Positions 7,823 through 31,543 of a DNA stretch of 42,038 nt are shown here, piece after piece; within the stretch, counting starts at the first letter, position 1; each line of letters begins with the position of its first letter. A model generated the notes under the pieces. It was given only the letters and a program-made list of their open reading frames with translations, was not told where the DNA came from and searched no databases. Source of the DNA: Candidatus Aenigmatarchaeota archaeon (lineage in GTDB: Archaea > Aenigmatarchaeota > Aenigmatarchaeia > CG10238-14 > SCSR01); assembly GCA_039091335.1 (NCBI GenBank), contig JAWCME010000001.1:76024-118061 (forward strand). The letters are read 5' to 3'. A program made the translations under genes and the position numbers.

Positions 7823-7859
7823 ACTACCATAGGATGGTTGTTTATCAAGGTCAGGCAAC
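7823..7859 (-). other. 3' arm of pre-23S processing stem (BHB)
   Basis: GACCU UGAU AAA CAACCAUCCUAUGGUAGU pairs with the 5' arm at 11066-11102. Confidence 0.92.
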
Positions 7860-8024
7860 CTCAGGCTTTTAGTGGCAGCCAGCTGAGTACCTCGCTCGAA
7901 AGCTTGGTACTTACACTGCTGCTCTATCAAGCTTGTAGTCTACAAGGGCCTTTGTCGCTCTTCCGCTCCTTTCGGAGCAGTTGAGCGATTGGCTGTCTAT
8001 TTTTCCGGATGGCTTCGTCCTTAG

Positions 8025-8062
8025 TTAGACAAGTATAGCACTTAGTTTAAGTGCTATACTTT
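8025..8062 (-). other. 23S BHB intron, 38 nt, ~2754/2755
   Basis: Central helix AGGC/GUCU, bulges AUA and AAC, 14-bp intron stem; removal restores GCAUCUAAG. Confidence 0.9.
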
Positions 8063-8067
8063 ATGCC

Positions 8068-8098
8068 TTCCTGCTAATGGAGTTTAAACTCCATTAGT
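8068..8098 (-). other. 23S BHB intron, 31 nt, ~2749/2750
   Basis: Central helix CCUG/CAGG, bulges AAA and AAG, 9-bp stem; removal restores CCUGAAGGCAU. Confidence 0.9.
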
Positions 8099-8229
8099 TT
8101 CAGGACTTATCCATGATGGCGTGGCTGCCCGGCTGCAATCACAGCCGGTACACTAGAGGCCACGGATGGGTGTTCCTTTCGTACTCACCCATCCTTCCGG
8201 TCAGACAGCCAGCACCTCGAGTAGATAGC

Positions 8230-8263
<34 letters not shown>

Positions 8264-8362
8264 AATGTTCCCCTTTAATCAGTGGACACCTGCACCCTTG
8301 GCTGCTACTGCACAGCCAGGAGGGGGAAAGCCGACAGCGACGCACCAACGCGCCGGGTCAAT

Positions 8363-8399
8363 TTATCTCGCTTCTGGGAATCGAAGACTCCATAAAGCT
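8363..8399 (-). other. 23S intron, 37 nt, ~2477/2478 (H89), relaxed BHB
   Basis: Removal restores GUCCACAUUGAC; central helix GUCC/AGAU has one mismatch. Confidence 0.8.
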
Positions 8400-8571
8400 G
8401 TGGACTTTCACCGGCCACGGGCCCATTATCCCCGAGGTAGCTTTTCTGATACCGCTCACTCCCATCAAGGGAAATGAACGTCTCGTTAGCCCATGCTTTC
8501 GCAGCTGGACTTCTCGCTTTGTGAAGTCCAGTCAGGCTGGCTTTTGCGCTTACACTCTACTCAGGATTTCT

Positions 8572-8657
8572 TTAGGGTGATAGAAGTTAATTCATTAGCT
8601 ACCTCACTTCTCATCTTAAATCAATCTGGAGCAGTATAATCATTCAACTTCTATCAT
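8572..8657 (-). other. 23S BHB intron, 86 nt, ~2306/2307 (H84), containing box C/D motifs
   Basis: Central helix AGGG/CCCU, 11-bp stem UGAUAGAAGUU/AACUUCUAUCA; removal restores GGGUCAGAAAUCC. Confidence 0.92.
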
Positions 8658-9662
8658 GACCCTGATGAGCCAACCTTTGGGCACCCTTGATCTCTTGTCA
8701 AGGGTGTACCGCCCCAGCCGAACTGCCCGCCAGATGCTGTCCTCTTTCGAGTTAGCGATTCGGTTGAGGAGGGGTGGTGTTACACTTTCCTCTCAGCTTT
8801 TGCCCGGAGGCTAAGCCTAATAGCGAGTACCACCTACGCTCTGCAACCGCAACCGAATCGCAACATCAAGCTGCAGTAAAGCTCTACGGGGTCTTCGTTT
8901 CCCACTCGAGGTCTCTGGCCTATTCACCAGAACAGCAATTTCGCTGGGTCCCAGCCTAGGACAGCGAGGAAGTCGTTACGCCATTGAGACGGGCCGTCAA
9001 TTAAACGGCAAGGGATTACGCTACTTTACGACGGTCAGAGTTACCGCCGCCGTTTACCGGGGCTTCTTCCTGTTGGACCAGGCTTTCACACACCGGCACT
9101 GGGCAGGCATCAGAGACTGTACACATGCTTTCGCACTTGCAGTCTCCTATGTTTTTGTTAAACAGTCGCTTCCTCCTTGTCACTGCGACCTGCTGTCCCA
9201 CCCCACTTGCCCTGCTTAGCAGGACTTGTGGTTAGAGACTACAGGCACCCCTTCTAGCTAACATACGGGGCCAATTTGCCGATTTCCCTAGGCTGGGTTC
9301 TCCCAACAGGCCATTGCCTTCTCAGCAAGCATACCTGTGTCGGTTCTCGGTACGGTCATGAAGGATCCGTTGAAGTTCTTTTTCACGGACTCCAGGAATC
9401 GGTCGAACTTCGCATACGCGAAGCTATTCCCACTTTCATCTGCTTCTCCTCTTTATGAGACTCCACAGACTTCAGTGGTTAACTTGCGTCGACCTATCCC
9501 GAAGTGTCAGAACTTCAACTTGCGTTGCCGCATGTACCTTCATGGCATGGGAATATTAACCCATCTCCCATTTGACCGGTTCGGTTAAGATCGGTCTTAG
9601 GACCGGCTAACCGCCAGTTGACGAACATTGCTGGCAAACCCTTATGCTTTAGGCCGTTGGGA

Positions 9663-9679
9663 ATTGAGGATAAATATCT
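9663..9679 (-). other. 23S BHB mini-intron, 17 nt, ~1287/1288
   Basis: Central helix UGAG/CUCA, bulges AAA and AUU, stem GAU/AUC, exon stem GUUGGG/CCCAAC; restores loop UGAGAAU. Confidence 0.88.
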
Positions 9680-11065
9680 TTCTCACCCAACTATGCTGCT
9701 ACTCATGGCAGGATCTTCATTTCCTTGCGGTCCACTTGTTCTTACGAACAAGCTTCTACCCACAAGGAACGCCTTCTTACCCTTGCTTTCGCAAGCTTGG
9801 GTATCGGTAACCAGCTTAGTCCCTTCCATTTTCAGGGCAGAAACTCTCGGCGGGTAAGCTGTTACGCACTTTTTAACTGATGGCTGCTTCTAAGCCTACA
9901 GTCCCGCTGTCTAAGAGTTTCCACTCCCTTCTTCACTTAGCTGGTATTTTGGGACCTTAACCCAAGTCCGGGTTGTTTCCCTCTCGGAGGCTGAGCTTAC
10001 CCCAACCCCCTCACTCCGGCCTTCTAAGACGCTAACAGATTCTGAGTTGGACAGGATGGCTGAGCCTTTCGGCCCTTCACCACCCAATCCGTAGCTTTAC
10101 CCTGTTAGCTGTCTCCGGCCAGGCTGTACTGAGGTACATTTCAGAAGGAACCAGCTATCACCAGTTTCGATTGGCTTTTCACCCCTAACCCAAGGTTACC
10201 CGAGTGATTGGACCTCAACATCGGTATCGGGCTTCCATTTCGCTTTCGCGAAACTTCACCCTACCTTGGGTTAGATCAACTGGCTTCTGGTCTTATCCCA
10301 GCGACTTCAGGCACTTTCATACCCAGCACCACGCTCTTAATGAGCTACGTGCTTTTCGCTTTCGCTACGGATCCGGAGCTTAAACTCCTTATCCTCGCCG
10401 CTGAGATAAACTCCCTGCCCCGTTTTTCAGAACGGATGCTAGGACACTGTAAGCTGCTCTTAGTACTATTTCCTCTCGGAAATTTCCTTCAGAGCAGCAC
10501 CTTTCATGCCCTAGCTGACTATCTCCATCTTGGTTTCAGGCTCTTTTCACCTCCCTTTCGGGATACTTTTCAGCTTTCTTTCACAATACTATTGCGCTAT
10601 CGGACTTGGTTAGTATTTAGGGTTGGATGTTGATGCCACCCAGATTCCTGCTCCATATCCAAGGAACAGTACTCAGGATGCTTGGCATTTTCCTTCTCTC
10701 CTTCCTCTACGAGGCTATCACTCTCTAAGGCGGTTCTTTCCAGAACACTTCGAGTCGGAGAGTTAGGAAAGACCCAAGTCCTACAACTCCACATCCTTTC
10801 TTTCTTTTCGAAAGAAAGTTCGGTTTGCCCTTTACCCCTTTCACTCGCCGTTACTCAGGGTATCTCAATTGATTTCTTTTCCTGCGCCTACTAAGATGCT
10901 TCACTTCGGCGCGTTCCTCTCCCTTTCGGGATAGCTCTTTAAGAGCTGGGAATCCCATTGATAGATCCTGGGGTCAATTCCTCCATGCGGATAACCCAGG
11001 CTTATCGCAACTTGGTACGTACTTCATCAGCTAACCAAGCCAAGCCATCCACCAAGTGGAGTGGT

Positions 11066-11102
11066 GTTGCCAGACCTCTTTGACCAACCATCCTATGGTA
11101 GT
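11066..11102 (-). other. 5' arm of pre-23S processing stem (BHB)
   Basis: ACUACCAUAGGAUGGUUG GUCA AAG AGGUC; 18-bp outer helix with 7823-7840. Confidence 0.92.
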
Positions 11103-15424: not shown

Positions 15425-15527
15425 TGGACCGGCGGGGATTTGAACCCCGAGCTTGCAGAGGTTTAAACTTCTCCGCTTTGCATTCGCCTTTTTATAGAGC
15501 GGCGATCTACCATTGATCTACCGGCCC
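15425..15527 (-). tRNA. tRNA-Ala(UGC) with introns at 33/34 (15483-15495) and 45/46 (15453-15470)
   Basis: G3.U70 acceptor pair, A73. Central helices CGCU/GGCG and GCGG/CUGC; the spliced form is a normal cloverleaf. Confidence 0.92.
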
Positions 15528-16642: not shown

Positions 16643-16699
16643 TTTTTCTTAAGGAGGTGATCCAGCCGCACGTTCCCGTACGGCTACCTTGTGGCGACT

Positions 16700-16796
16700 T
16701 TAGGCTCTTGGAAGCTCATAATAAATCAATTCACCTCCAACTCATCATTAATCAGAGTCAAGCCATTTTCTCATATTATTTTAGAGCTTCCAAAAT
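16700..16796 (-). other. 16S BHB intron, 97 nt, between A1492 and A1493, containing a full box C/D set
   Basis: Central helix GGGC/GCCU, 12-bp stem UUUUGGAAGCUC/GAGCUUCCAAGA; removal restores GGGGCUAAGUCG. Confidence 0.92.
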
Positions 16797-16869
16797 TAGC
16801 CCCTCTCGCAAAACCCAAACTCGACTTTCCCAAAAAGAGAAAGCCTTGTTTGGGTTTCACTCGATTGGC

Positions 16870-16906
<37 letters not shown>

Positions 16907-16915
16907 GACGAACGA

Positions 16916-16959
16916 ATCCACGCAATATGAAGCATTTCCAGCCTCTTTTCATAATTGCA
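16916..16959 (-). other. 16S BHB intron, 44 nt, ~1363/1364
   Basis: Central helix UCAU/GUGG, exon helix AACG/CGUU, stem GCAA/UUGC. Confidence 0.88.
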
Positions 16960-17414
16960 TGATGACGTTCGCCTACTAGGGATTCCGGCTTCACGAGGAC
17001 GAGTTACAGCCCTCGATCTGAACTGAGCATGCTTTTAGGGGATTAGCTTCTCCTTTCGGAGTTGCATCCCATTGTGGCATGCATTGTGGGTCGCGTGTAG
17101 CCCAGGAGATTCGGGGCATACGGACCTACCGTCGCCCACACCTTCCTCCCACTTATCGCGGGCAGTCTCCCATGAGTGCACTTCCTCCGGAGAGGAAGTT
17201 AGCAACATGGGATGTGGGTCTCGCTCGTTAACCGACTTAACGGCACGCCTCACGGTACGAGCTGACGATGGCCATGCACCACCTCTCAGCTTGTCTGGTA
17301 AGCCCTTCAGACTGACCCTCATCCTGCTGTCAACCCTGGTAAGATTCCCGGCGTTGAATCCAATTAAACCGCAGCCTCCACCCCTTGTGTGCTCCCCCGC
17401 CAATTCCCTTAAGT

Positions 17415-17470
17415 TAGGTGGAAGAAGTGGTATGTTTATATTAAATTTTTAAAAAAACACCACTTCCTCT
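17415..17470 (-). other. 16S BHB intron, 56 nt, 908/909
   Basis: Central helix GGUG/CACC, exon helix AAG/CUU, 11-bp stem; restores GUGAAACUUAA. Confidence 0.92.
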
Positions 17471-17581
17471 TTCACCCTTGCGGGTATACTCCCCAGGTGG
17501 CCCGCTTAACACCTACGCTCCGGCACTGCAAGCTCCCGAGAAGCCTGCAACACCAAGCGGGCATCGTTTACGGCTAGGACT

Positions 17582-17662
17582 TTCCCGCACGAGTAGGAAA
17601 TCCTAGCTTGTTGGGTCTTAAATTTCTTCATATTTTATCAGAAGATACTCCCAACCTCGTGT
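17582..17662 (-). other. 16S BHB intron, 81 nt, 801/802, with internal D'/C' motif
   Basis: Central helix CCCG/CGGG, stem CACGAG/CUCGUG; restores CCGGUAGUCC. Confidence 0.92.
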
Positions 17663-18400
17663 ACCGGGGTATCTAATCCCGATCGCTCCCCTAGCTTTCG
17701 TCCCTCACAGTCAGACCCGTTCCAGCAAGACGCCTTCGCCACAGGTTGTCCCCTTTGGATTAAAGGATTTAACCCCTACCCAAAGAGTACATCTTGCCTC
17801 TCCCGGTCTCAAGCCCGAAAGTATCCTCAGCAAGCCCTCCAGTTTACTGGAGGATTTCACCAAGGACTTTTCAGGCCTGCTACGGACTCTTTAGACCCAA
17901 TAATCGTGACCATCACTTGGAGTGCGGGTATTACCGCGGTGGCTGGCACCCGTCTTACCCACTCCTTATTCGCCTTCCTGTTTTCAGAAGGCAAAAGCTC
18001 TTGCAGAGCAAGAGCACTCCGGGTTCCCTTATCTCGCGTTAGCGAATTGTAAAGTTTTCGCGCCTGCTGCGTTCCGTAGAACCTGGACTCATGTCTCAGA
18101 GTCCATCTCCGGGCTCCTACTTCCATAGCCCGTAGGCGTTATCGCTTTGTTGGTTCGTTACACCAACAACAGGCTGATACCATGCAGTCCCATCCTTAGC
18201 CGCAATTGCTTTTGTTGTTGGAACCTTCCAGTATCCAACAACTATGGAGTATTGAGCTCAGTTTCCCGAGTTTATCCTCCAGCTAAGGGTAGGTTGACTG
18301 CACATTACGGAGCAGTTCGCCGAGGGCTTTCCCCTCTCGACTCGCATGGCTTAGTCGAACCCGGATAGCAATGGTCTCTGGCGGGATCAACCAGAATTTT

Positions 18401-19240: not shown

Positions 19241-19365
19241 TGCTGGGAGTGGGATTTGAACCCACGACTTCTGCGATTCACCTTTCATTTTTTAATCAAA
19301 GCTCATAAGATTATGAGCGCAGCTTAAGCTTTTACAATGTTCTAACCAGACTGAACTATCCCAGC
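19241..19365 (-). tRNA. tRNA(CAU), probably elongator Met, with introns at 38/39 (19276-19310) and ~25/26 (19324-19338)
   Basis: Removing 35+15 nt gives CUGCG CUCAUAA CGCAG. The 38/39 intron has helix UCAU/GUGA; the first junction is uncertain, and Ile2 cannot be fully excluded. Confidence 0.8.
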
Positions 19366-31444: not shown

Positions 31445-31543
31445 CGCTGGGGATGGGATTTGAACCCATACTCTCCTTTCGGAGAACCAGCTCTCGAGGT
31501 TCACCTTTATATCTGGCGCCTTACCTTGTTCGGCCACCCCAGC
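31445..31543 (-). tRNA. tRNA-Ser(CGA) with intron at 30/31 (31500-31512)
   Basis: Long variable arm, G73; central helix CGCC/GGUG, exon helix GG/CU. Confidence 0.92.

What the first reader, a model, noticed from the sequence alone, without database searches (positions are those of the whole stretch)
8025..8098. Two 23S introns separated by a 5-nt micro-exon with overlapping splice structures
Seen: the 31-nt and 38-nt introns flank the exon GGCAU (8063-8067). The central helix of the downstream intron (AGGC) uses nucleotides that form the 3' bulge (AAG) and exon helix of the upstream intron, so both BHBs cannot form at once. Inference: ordered or mutually exclusive splicing within one H97 loop.
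Basis: partly seen in the sequence, partly recalled or inferred. Interest (0 to 1): 0.75.

Follow-up and report, generated by a model that had tools for sequence, protein, structure and literature searches.

The report
Two overlapping mini-introns in 23S rRNA
The only 23S rRNA gene of this tiny DPANN archaeon has one hairpin loop split by two very short tRNA-type introns only 5 bases apart, and because their cutting structures share four bases they must be removed one after the other; this is a neat new variant of known archaeal splicing, not a new mechanism.

Summary
On the minus strand, the H97 loop of the only 23S gene reads GUCCUGAA|31-nt intron|GGCAU|38-nt intron|CUAAGGAC. Removing both inserts restores GAAGGCAUCUA, a normal loop variant in relatives.

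Each insert has a canonical bulge-helix-bulge (BHB) motif: a 4-bp helix, two 3-nt bulges and a 10-11-bp inner hairpin.

In a 371-genome phylum survey:
- 131 genomes have an uninterrupted loop.
- 18 have an intron only at the downstream site.
- 1 (G014) has an intron only at the upstream site.
- Only this genome has both.

A metagenome contig from another family (L075) has the same double layout with unrelated hairpins. Twenty-three downstream-site introns show strong covariation.

A8068, G8067, G8066 and C8065 are bulge and outer helix in BHB1 but central helix in BHB2. The two motifs therefore exclude each other, and splicing must be sequential.

Folding mildly favours intron 1 first. BHB2 rises from P~0.01 to 0.15, within the single-intron range, once intron 1 is out.

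EndA is missing from this 87%-complete assembly.

Precedents exist: rRNA introns 7-8 nt apart in Thermoproteales, and ordered nested tRNA introns. I call this a new variant of a known kind, of moderate interest.

The parts
7849..11076 (-). 23S rRNA gene, the only copy in the 570-kb assembly
   Evidence: Rfam RF02540, 2606 bits, model 1-2987. The H97 region matches only once in the genome.
8102..8106 (-). H97 stem, 5' strand GUCCU. CCU plus G8101 doubles as the 5' strand of the BHB1 central helix.
   Evidence: Alignment to the model. Pairs with AGGAC 8021-8017 in the MFE folds.
8068..8098 (-). Intron 1 (31 nt): A CUAAUGGAGU UUAA ACUCCAUUAG CAGG AA
   Evidence: Absent from about 40 relatives. 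A homologous single intron sits at the same site in G014 and in L075.
8098..8100 (-). BHB1 5' bulge AAA; predicted cut between A8099 and A8098
   Evidence: Geometry checked. The cleavage rule was calibrated on site 2.
8074..8097 (-). Intron 1 inner hairpin (h'): 10 bp with a UUAA loop
   Evidence: The stems differ by compensatory changes in G014 and L075.
8070..8073 (-). BHB1 central helix, 3' strand CAGG (pairs with CCUG 8104-8101)
   Evidence: The same CCUG/CAGG helix is present in G014 and L075.
8067..8069 (-). BHB1 3' bulge AAG; predicted cut between A8068 and G8067. A8068 and G8067 are also pairs 1 and 2 of the BHB2 central helix.
8063..8067 (-). 5-nt micro-exon GGCAU, which restores the conserved loop GAA-GGCAU-CUA
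   Evidence: GCAU is invariant in the 131 uninterrupted loops of the phylum. GAAGGCAUCUA is a common variant.
8065..8068 (-). BHB2 central helix, 5' strand AGGC. This is the overlap element: BHB1 bulge plus BHB1 outer helix.
   Evidence: Covariation across 23 site-2 introns.
8025..8062 (-). Intron 2 (38 nt): A AAGUAUAGCAC UUAAACUAA GUGCUAUACUU GUCU AA
   Evidence: Absent from relatives. The same site is occupied singly in 18 phylum genomes and several metagenome contigs.
8062..8064 (-). BHB2 5' bulge AUA; cut between U8063 and A8062
   Evidence: This is the only junction that restores the invariant GCAU|CUAAG.
8031..8061 (-). Intron 2 inner hairpin (h'): 11 bp with a 9-nt loop
8027..8030 (-). 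BHB2 central helix, 3' strand GUCU
8024..8026 (-). BHB2 3' bulge AAC; cut between A8025 and C8024
   Evidence: AAC is the bulge in 18 of the 23 site-2 introns.
8017..8021 (-). H97 stem, 3' strand AGGAC. It is the outer helix (h) of BHB2 once intron 1 is gone.

Best explanation
These are two tandem, ORF-less BHB mini-introns (31 and 38 nt) of the kind cut by the archaeal splicing endonuclease EndA and rejoined by RtcB. They sit 5 nt apart in the H97 hairpin loop of the sole 23S rRNA gene of a DPANN archaeon.

The 5-nt exon GGCAU is kept. The mature loop is GAA-GGCAU-CUA.

The two motifs overlap on A8068, G8067, G8066 and C8065. Only one motif can exist in a given molecule at a time, so the pre-rRNA must go through cut, ligate, refold, cut, ligate.

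The most likely path (inferred):
1. BHB1 forms first. All its parts are transcribed before the 3' strands of BHB2 and of the H97 stem.
2. EndA cuts at 8099|8098 and 8068|8067.
3. RtcB joins A8099 to G8067.
4. The H97 stem then forms and stacks under AGGC/GUCU, giving a near-canonical hBHBh' for intron 2.
5. Intron 2 is cut at 8063|8062 and 8025|8024, and the ends are joined.

A consequence is that the 5-nt exon is never free at both ends.

Shown here: the anatomy, the insertion polymorphism, the covariation and the structural exclusivity. Inferred: actual splicing, the ligations and the order.
For: Anatomy and overlap.

Relatives:
- About 40 same-family and same-order relatives have the uninterrupted loop CUGAA(A/G/U)GCAUCUAAG.
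- In the phylum survey of 371 genomes, 131 are uninterrupted, 18 have site 2 only, 1 has site 1 only (G014), and 1 has both (this genome).
- A second double is on metagenome contig L075. It has unrelated hairpin sequences and its 23S is only 72% identical to the window's. Its nearest relatives, G040 and G045 (88-89.5% identity), are intron-less.

Covariation at site 2 (23 introns):
- 89% of cells are paired, against 65.5% in shuffles (0/500) and 24-43% in slid registers.
- The covariation score is 0.70 against 0.23 (0/500).
- The second pair of the central helix tracks the host loop polymorphism: GC 14, AU 7, UA 2.

Site-1 introns keep CCUG/CAGG and perfect but different hairpins.

This is the only 23S copy in the genome, so the inserts must be removed or tolerated.

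Splicing machinery:
- RtcB is present.
- EndA is present in 30 of 30 relatives.
- It is a 191-aa enzyme like the M. jannaschii alpha4 type, with an extra basic insertion between the catalytic Tyr and His.

Order:
- P(BHB2) is 0.011 in the precursor and 0.15 after intron-1 removal. In L075 it goes from 0.013 to 0.34. Single site-2 introns give 0.10-0.89.
- P(BHB1) is 1.6e-3 with or without intron 2.
Against:
- EndA was not found in this assembly. I attribute this to the missing ~13% of the genome.
- BHB1 has only a 2-bp outer helix. It must compete with the H97 stem, so its predicted population is low (~1e-3), although G014's single intron is similarly low (1e-2).
- At equilibrium the precursor favours the BHB2-compatible fold over BHB1, which points to the opposite order.
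- In L075 the outer pair of BHB2's central helix (U.G) uses the last nucleotide of intron 1 and becomes an A x G mismatch after intron-1 removal. This also hints at intron 2 first there.
- The folding used 70-126-nt fragments without proteins or the rest of the 23S.
Confidence: 0.75

Rival explanations
1. Same two introns, but with no fixed order, or with intron 2 first. The DPANN EndA accepts the relaxed BHB2 (central helix, both bulges and inner hairpin, but no stacked outer helix) in the precursor. Either motif is then cut whenever it happens to form.
For: - At equilibrium the BHB2 conformer is about 7 times more populated than BHB1 in the window precursor, and about 280 times in L075.
- BHB2 is compatible with the H97 stem, whereas BHB1 is not.
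- L075's U.G outer pair exists only before intron-1 removal.
- DPANN alpha4-type EndAs with extra loops are associated in the literature with heavily disrupted tRNA genes, which suggests relaxed specificity (PMC5829648). Relatives' EndA has an extra insertion near the catalytic His.
Against: - All 21 single site-2 introns use the H97 stem directly as the outer helix. The doubles regain that state only after intron-1 removal.
- BHB1 is transcribed completely before BHB2's 3' strand.
- BHB1 is indifferent to intron 2.
Confidence: 0.3
2. The inserts are cut out but the ends are not all religated. The result is either a fragmented 23S with a gap at H97, or a skipped micro-exon that gives a 6-nt loop GAACUA.
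For: - Fragmented and circularly permuted 23S rRNAs made through BHB processing exist in Thermococcales (bioRxiv 10.64898/2026.03.23.713588, abstract listed).
- The GGC of the micro-exon is constrained by both BHBs, so its conservation alone does not prove that it is used in the mature rRNA.
Against: - GCAU is invariant in the 131 uninterrupted loops.
- Both doubles keep GGCAU in exact register, including the AU that lies in a bulge.
- Mutual exclusivity prevents all four cuts in one binding event.
- RtcB is present.
Confidence: 0.07
3. The 74 nt are not removed at all. They form a two-hairpin expansion segment retained in the mature ribosome.
For: - The MFE fold keeps the H97 stem and presents two stable hairpins.
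- No RNA data exclude retention.
Against: - An expansion segment would not need exact 4-bp-helix and 3-nt-bulge geometry at both ends.
- It would not need covariation of the central helix with the host loop.
- It would not need precise preservation of GGCAU and CUAAG.
- The inserts are sporadic presence/absence characters among close relatives.
Confidence: 0.04

Closest known systems
Closely spaced BHB introns in crenarchaeal 16S rRNA: Pyrobaculum oguniense Pog.S1205 and Pog.S1213, 8 nt apart; loci 901 and 908, 7 nt apart (Jay & Inskeep 2015, PMC4496867, citing Nakayama et al. 2003)
   Same: Two protein-spliced introns in one rRNA gene, separated by a very short exon. One partner is a short (<50 nt) hairpin-only intron.
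   Different: - Those are in 16S of hyperthermophilic Thermoproteales. One partner encodes a homing endonuclease that co-converts the pair.
- Here both introns are ORF-less mini-introns in a 23S hairpin loop of a DPANN archaeon.
- The exon here is 5 nt, and the BHB overlap is explicit.
- I found no statement on BHB overlap or splicing order for the published pairs in the text I read.
Nested or ordered multiple introns in archaeal pre-tRNAs (Sugahara et al. 2007; Tocchini-Valentini et al. 2009, as summarised in PMC3978253)
   Same: EndA substrates in which one BHB can form properly only after another intron has been removed, so that splicing is ordered.
   Different: - The host there is tRNA, not rRNA.
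- Those introns are described as nested. Here they are tandem, with a retained exon, and the two motifs are alternative folds of the same four nucleotides.
- The primary papers were not available to me.
Classical archaeal rRNA BHB introns (Desulfurococcus mobilis 23S; Kjems & Garrett, cited in PMC6379350)
   Same: Same motif (4-bp helix between two 3-nt bulges) and the same cleavage position. Exon ligation and intron circularisation are expected.
   Different: Those are single introns, usually hundreds of nt long, and often carry homing-endonuclease ORFs. None is reported at this H97 loop site in the papers I read.
Sequential BHB processing in Cyanidioschyzon merolae multi-intron and permuted pre-tRNAs (Soma et al. 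2013, PMC3728597; as summarised in PMC3978253)
   Same: Several BHBs in one precursor are removed in a reproducible order related to motif stability.
   Different: The organism is a eukaryotic alga, the substrates are tRNAs, and the motifs can fold independently. Here they cannot.

Membership tests
Archaeal BHB (EndA/RtcB-spliced) intron | Two 3-nt bulges on opposite strands, separated by a 4-bp central helix | tested here: met
   BHB1: CCUG/CAGG with bulges AAA and AAG. BHB2: AGGC/GUCU with bulges AUA and AAC. The same geometry holds in 23 site-2 and 3 site-1 introns.
Archaeal BHB (EndA/RtcB-spliced) intron | Flanking helices h (outer) and h' (inner) of at least 2 bp, i.e. a strict hBHBh' motif | tested here: inconclusive
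   - h' is 10 bp and 11 bp.
- The outer helix of BHB1 is only U.G plus G-C, followed by an A x A mismatch.
- The outer helix of BHB2 (the H97 stem) stacks on the central helix only after intron 1 is removed. Even then there is a G.A mismatch next to A8100-U8023.
Archaeal BHB (EndA/RtcB-spliced) intron | Excision at the bulges restores the conserved mature sequence | tested here: met
   The product GAAGGCAUCUA equals the loop of many relatives. The intron-2 junction is unique.
Archaeal BHB (EndA/RtcB-spliced) intron | Covariation that maintains the motif across homologous introns | tested here: met
   89% of cells paired against 65.5% in shuffles (0/500); covariation 0.70 against 0.23; 8 of 10 pairs show changes on both sides.
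Archaeal BHB (EndA/RtcB-spliced) intron | The genome encodes EndA and RtcB | tested here: inconclusive
   RtcB is found but cut by a contig end. EndA is not found in this 87%-complete assembly, although it is present in 30 of 30 relatives.
Archaeal BHB (EndA/RtcB-spliced) intron | Spliced junctions and excised (circular) introns observed in RNA | not testable with these tools
Ordered (nested) multi-intron EndA substrates, as in pre-tRNA | One BHB cannot form until another intron is removed | tested here: inconclusive
   The two BHBs are mutually exclusive. Each can still form in the precursor as a minority conformer. BHB2 becomes 14-25 times more populated after intron-1 removal.
Ordered (nested) multi-intron EndA substrates, as in pre-tRNA | The host RNA is a pre-tRNA and the introns are nested | tested here: not met
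   The host is 23S rRNA. The introns are tandem around a retained 5-nt exon. No outer BHB joins the 5' site of intron 1 to the 3' site of intron 2 (sequence).
Group I / group II / homing-endonuclease introns | A ribozyme core or an endonuclease ORF | tested here: not met
   No Rfam family other than the rRNA itself matches here. The inserts are 31 and 38 nt, too short for either feature.

The most novel reading that the evidence does not exclude
The overlap is functional rather than accidental, and the two introns form a co-dependent module.

After intron 1 is excised, the 3' strand of intron 2 (GUCU) would pair with A8099 and with G8067-C8065. This would place the two new ends as neighbouring base pairs of one helix, stacked on the H97 stem. 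Intron 2 would then act as a built-in splint for ligating the 5-nt exon. The obligatory two-step refolding would delay formation of the mature H97 loop until late in 50S assembly.

This could explain why two of the three known site-1 introns have a site-2 partner, in families where site-2 introns are otherwise unseen.
Probability: 0.15. Interest if true: 0.7.

Novelty: new variant of a known kind. Interest (0 to 1): 0.45.

Why it matters
**What it would show if confirmed by RNA data**
- EndA/RtcB splicing can handle an exon of only 5 nt inside a conserved hairpin loop (H97, domain VI) of the large-subunit rRNA.
- The architecture of two overlapping BHB motifs enforces stepwise splicing in an rRNA. 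This principle has so far been described for nested tRNA introns.

**Practical points**
- Such mini-introns make DPANN rRNA genes look longer and can break probe or primer sites.
- The downstream H97 site is a recurrent intron site: 18 of about 151 scorable genomes of the phylum carry an intron there.

**Experimental value**
- The locus is a compact (~126 nt), easily synthesised substrate.
- It could be used to test how strict DPANN alpha4-like EndA enzymes are, and how RtcB finds its ends.

Tried and rejected

(2) tRNA introns as a calibrator of the cleavage rule. ARAGORN with introns gives inconsistent calls. The tRNA genes carry several non-canonical inserts each. I abandoned this and calibrated on site 2 instead.

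(3) EndA in the window's own genome. There is no PF01974 hit and no tblastn hit with relatives' proteins. I treat this as an assembly gap.

(4) A shared GUUUAAAC/UUAAAC loop motif in both introns and in a tRNA insert, as a possible intron-family signature. The motif is not enriched (16 sites against ~22 expected), and only two sites lie in hairpin loops. Rejected as an AT-rich coincidence.

(5) A single outer BHB or twintron reading. No CAGG-type strand precedes the 3' end of intron 2, and GGCAU is needed for the conserved loop. Rejected.

(6) A search for further doubles.
- A strict pattern over ~186,000 species genomes found none.
- Over metagenome contigs it found one, L075.
- A looser pattern over the 371-genome phylum found only the window.
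- Doubles whose flanks diverge from the pattern would have been missed.

(7) Mapping the EndA insertion onto the named L1/L2/L3 loops of PMC5829648. This could not be done from the text alone.

(8) The primary papers on ordered tRNA intron splicing (PMC2787110, PMC1852824) are not held.

Full report
**1. What is there**

The window carries an archaeal rRNA operon on the minus strand. The 23S is at 7849-11076 and the 16S at 16652-18397, and both are longer than the Rfam models. The assembly is 570 kb in 29 contigs and 87% complete. That is DPANN-sized. Earlier scan notes call it Aenigmatarchaeota, which I did not verify.

Aligned to the archaeal LSU model, the hairpin with the conserved loop GAAaNNNNNNN has GAAA + 76 nt in place of GAAa + 7. 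The helix number is from memory.

In rRNA sense the sequence is GUCCUGAA|A CUAAUGGAGU UUAA ACUCCAUUAG CAGGAA|GGCAU|A AAGUAUAGCAC UUAAACUAA GUGCUAUACUU GUCUAA|CUAAGGAC.
- Intron 1: 8098-8068.
- Exon: 8067-8063.
- Intron 2: 8062-8025.

The segment folds far better than shuffles (z = -6.6).

**2. Are these introns?**

The comparative evidence is strong.
- In about 40 same-family and same-order genomes, BLAST matches stop at window 8099/8098 and resume at 8024, with 4-5 nt between them.
- Their loops read CUGAA(A/G/U)GCAUCUAAG.
- G014 (same family) has one insert at the upstream site only. It has the same CCUG/CAGG helix and the same AAA/AAG bulges, but a different and perfectly paired hairpin.
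- G053 (same order) has one insert at the downstream site only.

A pattern survey of the 371 species genomes of the phylum gave:
- 131 uninterrupted loops, with GCAU invariant.
- 18 genomes with a site-2 intron only, in four families.
- 1 genome with a site-1 intron only.
- 1 genome with both, which is this window.

Scans of all species genomes and of metagenome contigs with a stricter double-intron pattern added more single site-2 introns. They also found one further double, L075: GCCCUGAA|A CUUUUAGAGCG AUUUUU CGCUCUAAAAG CAGGAU|GGCAU|A GAGCGCUAG UUUC CUAGCGCUU GCCGAA|CUAAGGGC.
- L075's 23S is 72% identical to the window's.
- It is 88-89.5% identical to G040 and G045, which belong to another family of the same order and have uninterrupted loops.
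- The double layout therefore exists in two diverged lineages, each surrounded by intron-less relatives.

**3. BHB geometry and cleavage rule**

Only the junction U8063|A8062 ... A8025|C8024 restores the invariant GCAU-CUAAG. With the helix AGGC/GUCU, this places both cuts after the second nucleotide of a 3-nt bulge (AU|A and AA|C).

All 23 distinct site-2 introns share this layout. On end-anchored composites the dedicated counter gives:
- 89.1% of cells paired, against 65.5% in shuffles (0/500) and 24-43% in slid registers.
- A covariation score of 0.70 against 0.23 (0/500).
- A second central-helix pair that follows the host loop polymorphism: G-C with GAAG, A-U with GAAA, U-A with GAAU.

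Applying the same rule to intron 1 (AA|A and AA|G) gives the 5-nt exon and the mature loop GAAGGCAUCUA. That loop is common among relatives.

**4. The overlap**

- BHB1 uses CCUG (8104-8101) with CAGG (8073-8070), bulges 8100-8098 and 8069-8067, and a 2-bp outer helix (U8105.G8066, G8106-C8065).
- BHB2 uses AGGC (8068-8065) with GUCU (8030-8027).
- A8068 and G8067 must therefore be unpaired for BHB1 and paired for BHB2.
- G8066 and C8065 pair with different partners in the two motifs.
- BHB1 also borrows the 5' strand of the H97 stem, whereas BHB2 is compatible with that stem.

The two motifs are alternative folds, so one molecule can present only one EndA substrate at a time.

It also implies that the pentanucleotide exon is never released at both ends, because ligation must precede the second refolding. 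That last step is my inference.

**5. Order**

Constrained ensemble folding of a 126-nt segment gives these values:

| State | Motif | P (window) | P (L075) |
|---|---|---|---|
| Precursor | BHB1 | 1.6e-3 | 5e-5 |
| Precursor | BHB2 | 1.1e-2 | 1.3e-2 |
| After intron-1 removal | BHB2 | 0.15 | 0.34 |
| After intron-2 removal | BHB1 | 1.6e-3 | 1.6e-3 |

For comparison, single site-2 introns give P = 0.10-0.89, and G014's single site-1 intron gives 1e-2.

For intron 1 first:
- Removing intron 1 brings BHB2 into the range of introns that must be spliced on their own.
- BHB1 is indifferent to intron 2.
- BHB1 is fully transcribed before the 3' strand of BHB2.

For intron 2 first:
- The equilibrium precursor prefers the BHB2-compatible fold.
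- In L075 the outer U.G pair of the BHB2 central helix uses the last intron-1 nucleotide.

I put intron 1 first at about 55-60%.

**6. Machinery**

- RtcB is present, but its frame is cut by a contig end.
- EndA is not detectable in this assembly, but it is present in 30 of 30 relatives.
- In G014 and G008 it is a 191-aa protein that aligns over its full length with the M. jannaschii homotetrameric enzyme (1a79, 3e-29).
- It has a 6-residue basic insertion between the catalytic Tyr and His. The ARMAN-2 enzyme aligns with an insertion at the same place.
- PMC5829648 reports that DPANN alpha4-type EndAs with extra loops go with heavily disrupted tRNA genes.
- The tRNA genes of this genome are indeed heavily interrupted.
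- A relaxed-specificity enzyme would make both splicing orders feasible.

**7. What is known**

- Archaeal rRNA BHB introns are classical.
- Jay & Inskeep (PMC4496867) describe 16S introns 8 nt apart in Pyrobaculum oguniense (1205 and 1213, co-converted by a homing endonuclease). They also describe loci 901 and 908, which are 7 nt apart.
- Ordered removal of nested tRNA introns is described (PMC3978253).
- I found no paper combining BHB introns with a micro-exon in rRNA, and none on rRNA mini-introns in DPANN.

The new elements are:
- The 5-nt exon.
- The site, a 23S H97 loop.
- The host group.
- Two ORF-less mini-introns.
- An explicit four-nucleotide overlap that forces stepwise splicing, seen in two lineages.

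I class it as a new variant of a known kind, of moderate interest.

**8. Limits**

- There are no RNA data.
- The folding used short naked fragments.
- The pattern searches miss loci whose flanks diverge from the pattern.
- Only three site-1 introns are known.
- The taxonomic label rests on earlier unchecked notes.

Noticed in passing
window 8024/8025 site; loci L034, L061, L063, L073, L074, L084-L098, L106-L111: The position between GCAU and CUAAG of the H97 loop is a recurrent mini-intron site. It is occupied in 18 of about 151 scorable genomes of the phylum, across four families, by introns of 29-52 nt. The second pair of the central helix covaries with the host loop polymorphism.
   Followed up: yes
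L075 1595-1694 (+), metagenome contig Ga0326761_1001723: A second double-intron H97 in another family. The outer pair of BHB2's central helix (U.G) is formed with the last nucleotide of intron 1, and it becomes an A x G mismatch once intron 1 is spliced.
   Followed up: partly
window 8362-8400 (-): Another short insert in the 23S: 39 nt where the model has 2, near model position 2571. I did not analyse it for a BHB.
   Followed up: no
window 19241-19365 (-), 15425-15527 (-), 31445-31543 (-): The tRNA genes carry several non-canonical inserts. For example, there are 61 nt in place of the 11-nt anticodon-loop region at 19241-19365. ARAGORN miscalls their anticodons and introns.
   Followed up: partly
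genome G000 (whole assembly): No EndA (PF01974) gene is detectable although 30 of 30 relatives have one. This is presumably in the missing ~13% of the assembly. The RtcB gene at C25:37091-37729 is truncated by a contig end.
   Followed up: partly
L115 346-921 (-) and L116 326-901 (-) (EndA of G014 and G008): The relatives' 191-aa alpha4-like EndA has a basic 6-residue insertion (KLKRGPKAP) between the catalytic Tyr and His that M. jannaschii EndA lacks. It may bear on relaxed substrate recognition.
   Followed up: partly
window 8084-8091 and 15461-15468: GUUUAAAC sits in the hairpin loop of intron 1 and of a tRNA insert, and UUAAAC sits in the loop of intron 2. The motif is not enriched genome-wide (16 against ~22 expected), so this is probably a coincidence.
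   Followed up: yes
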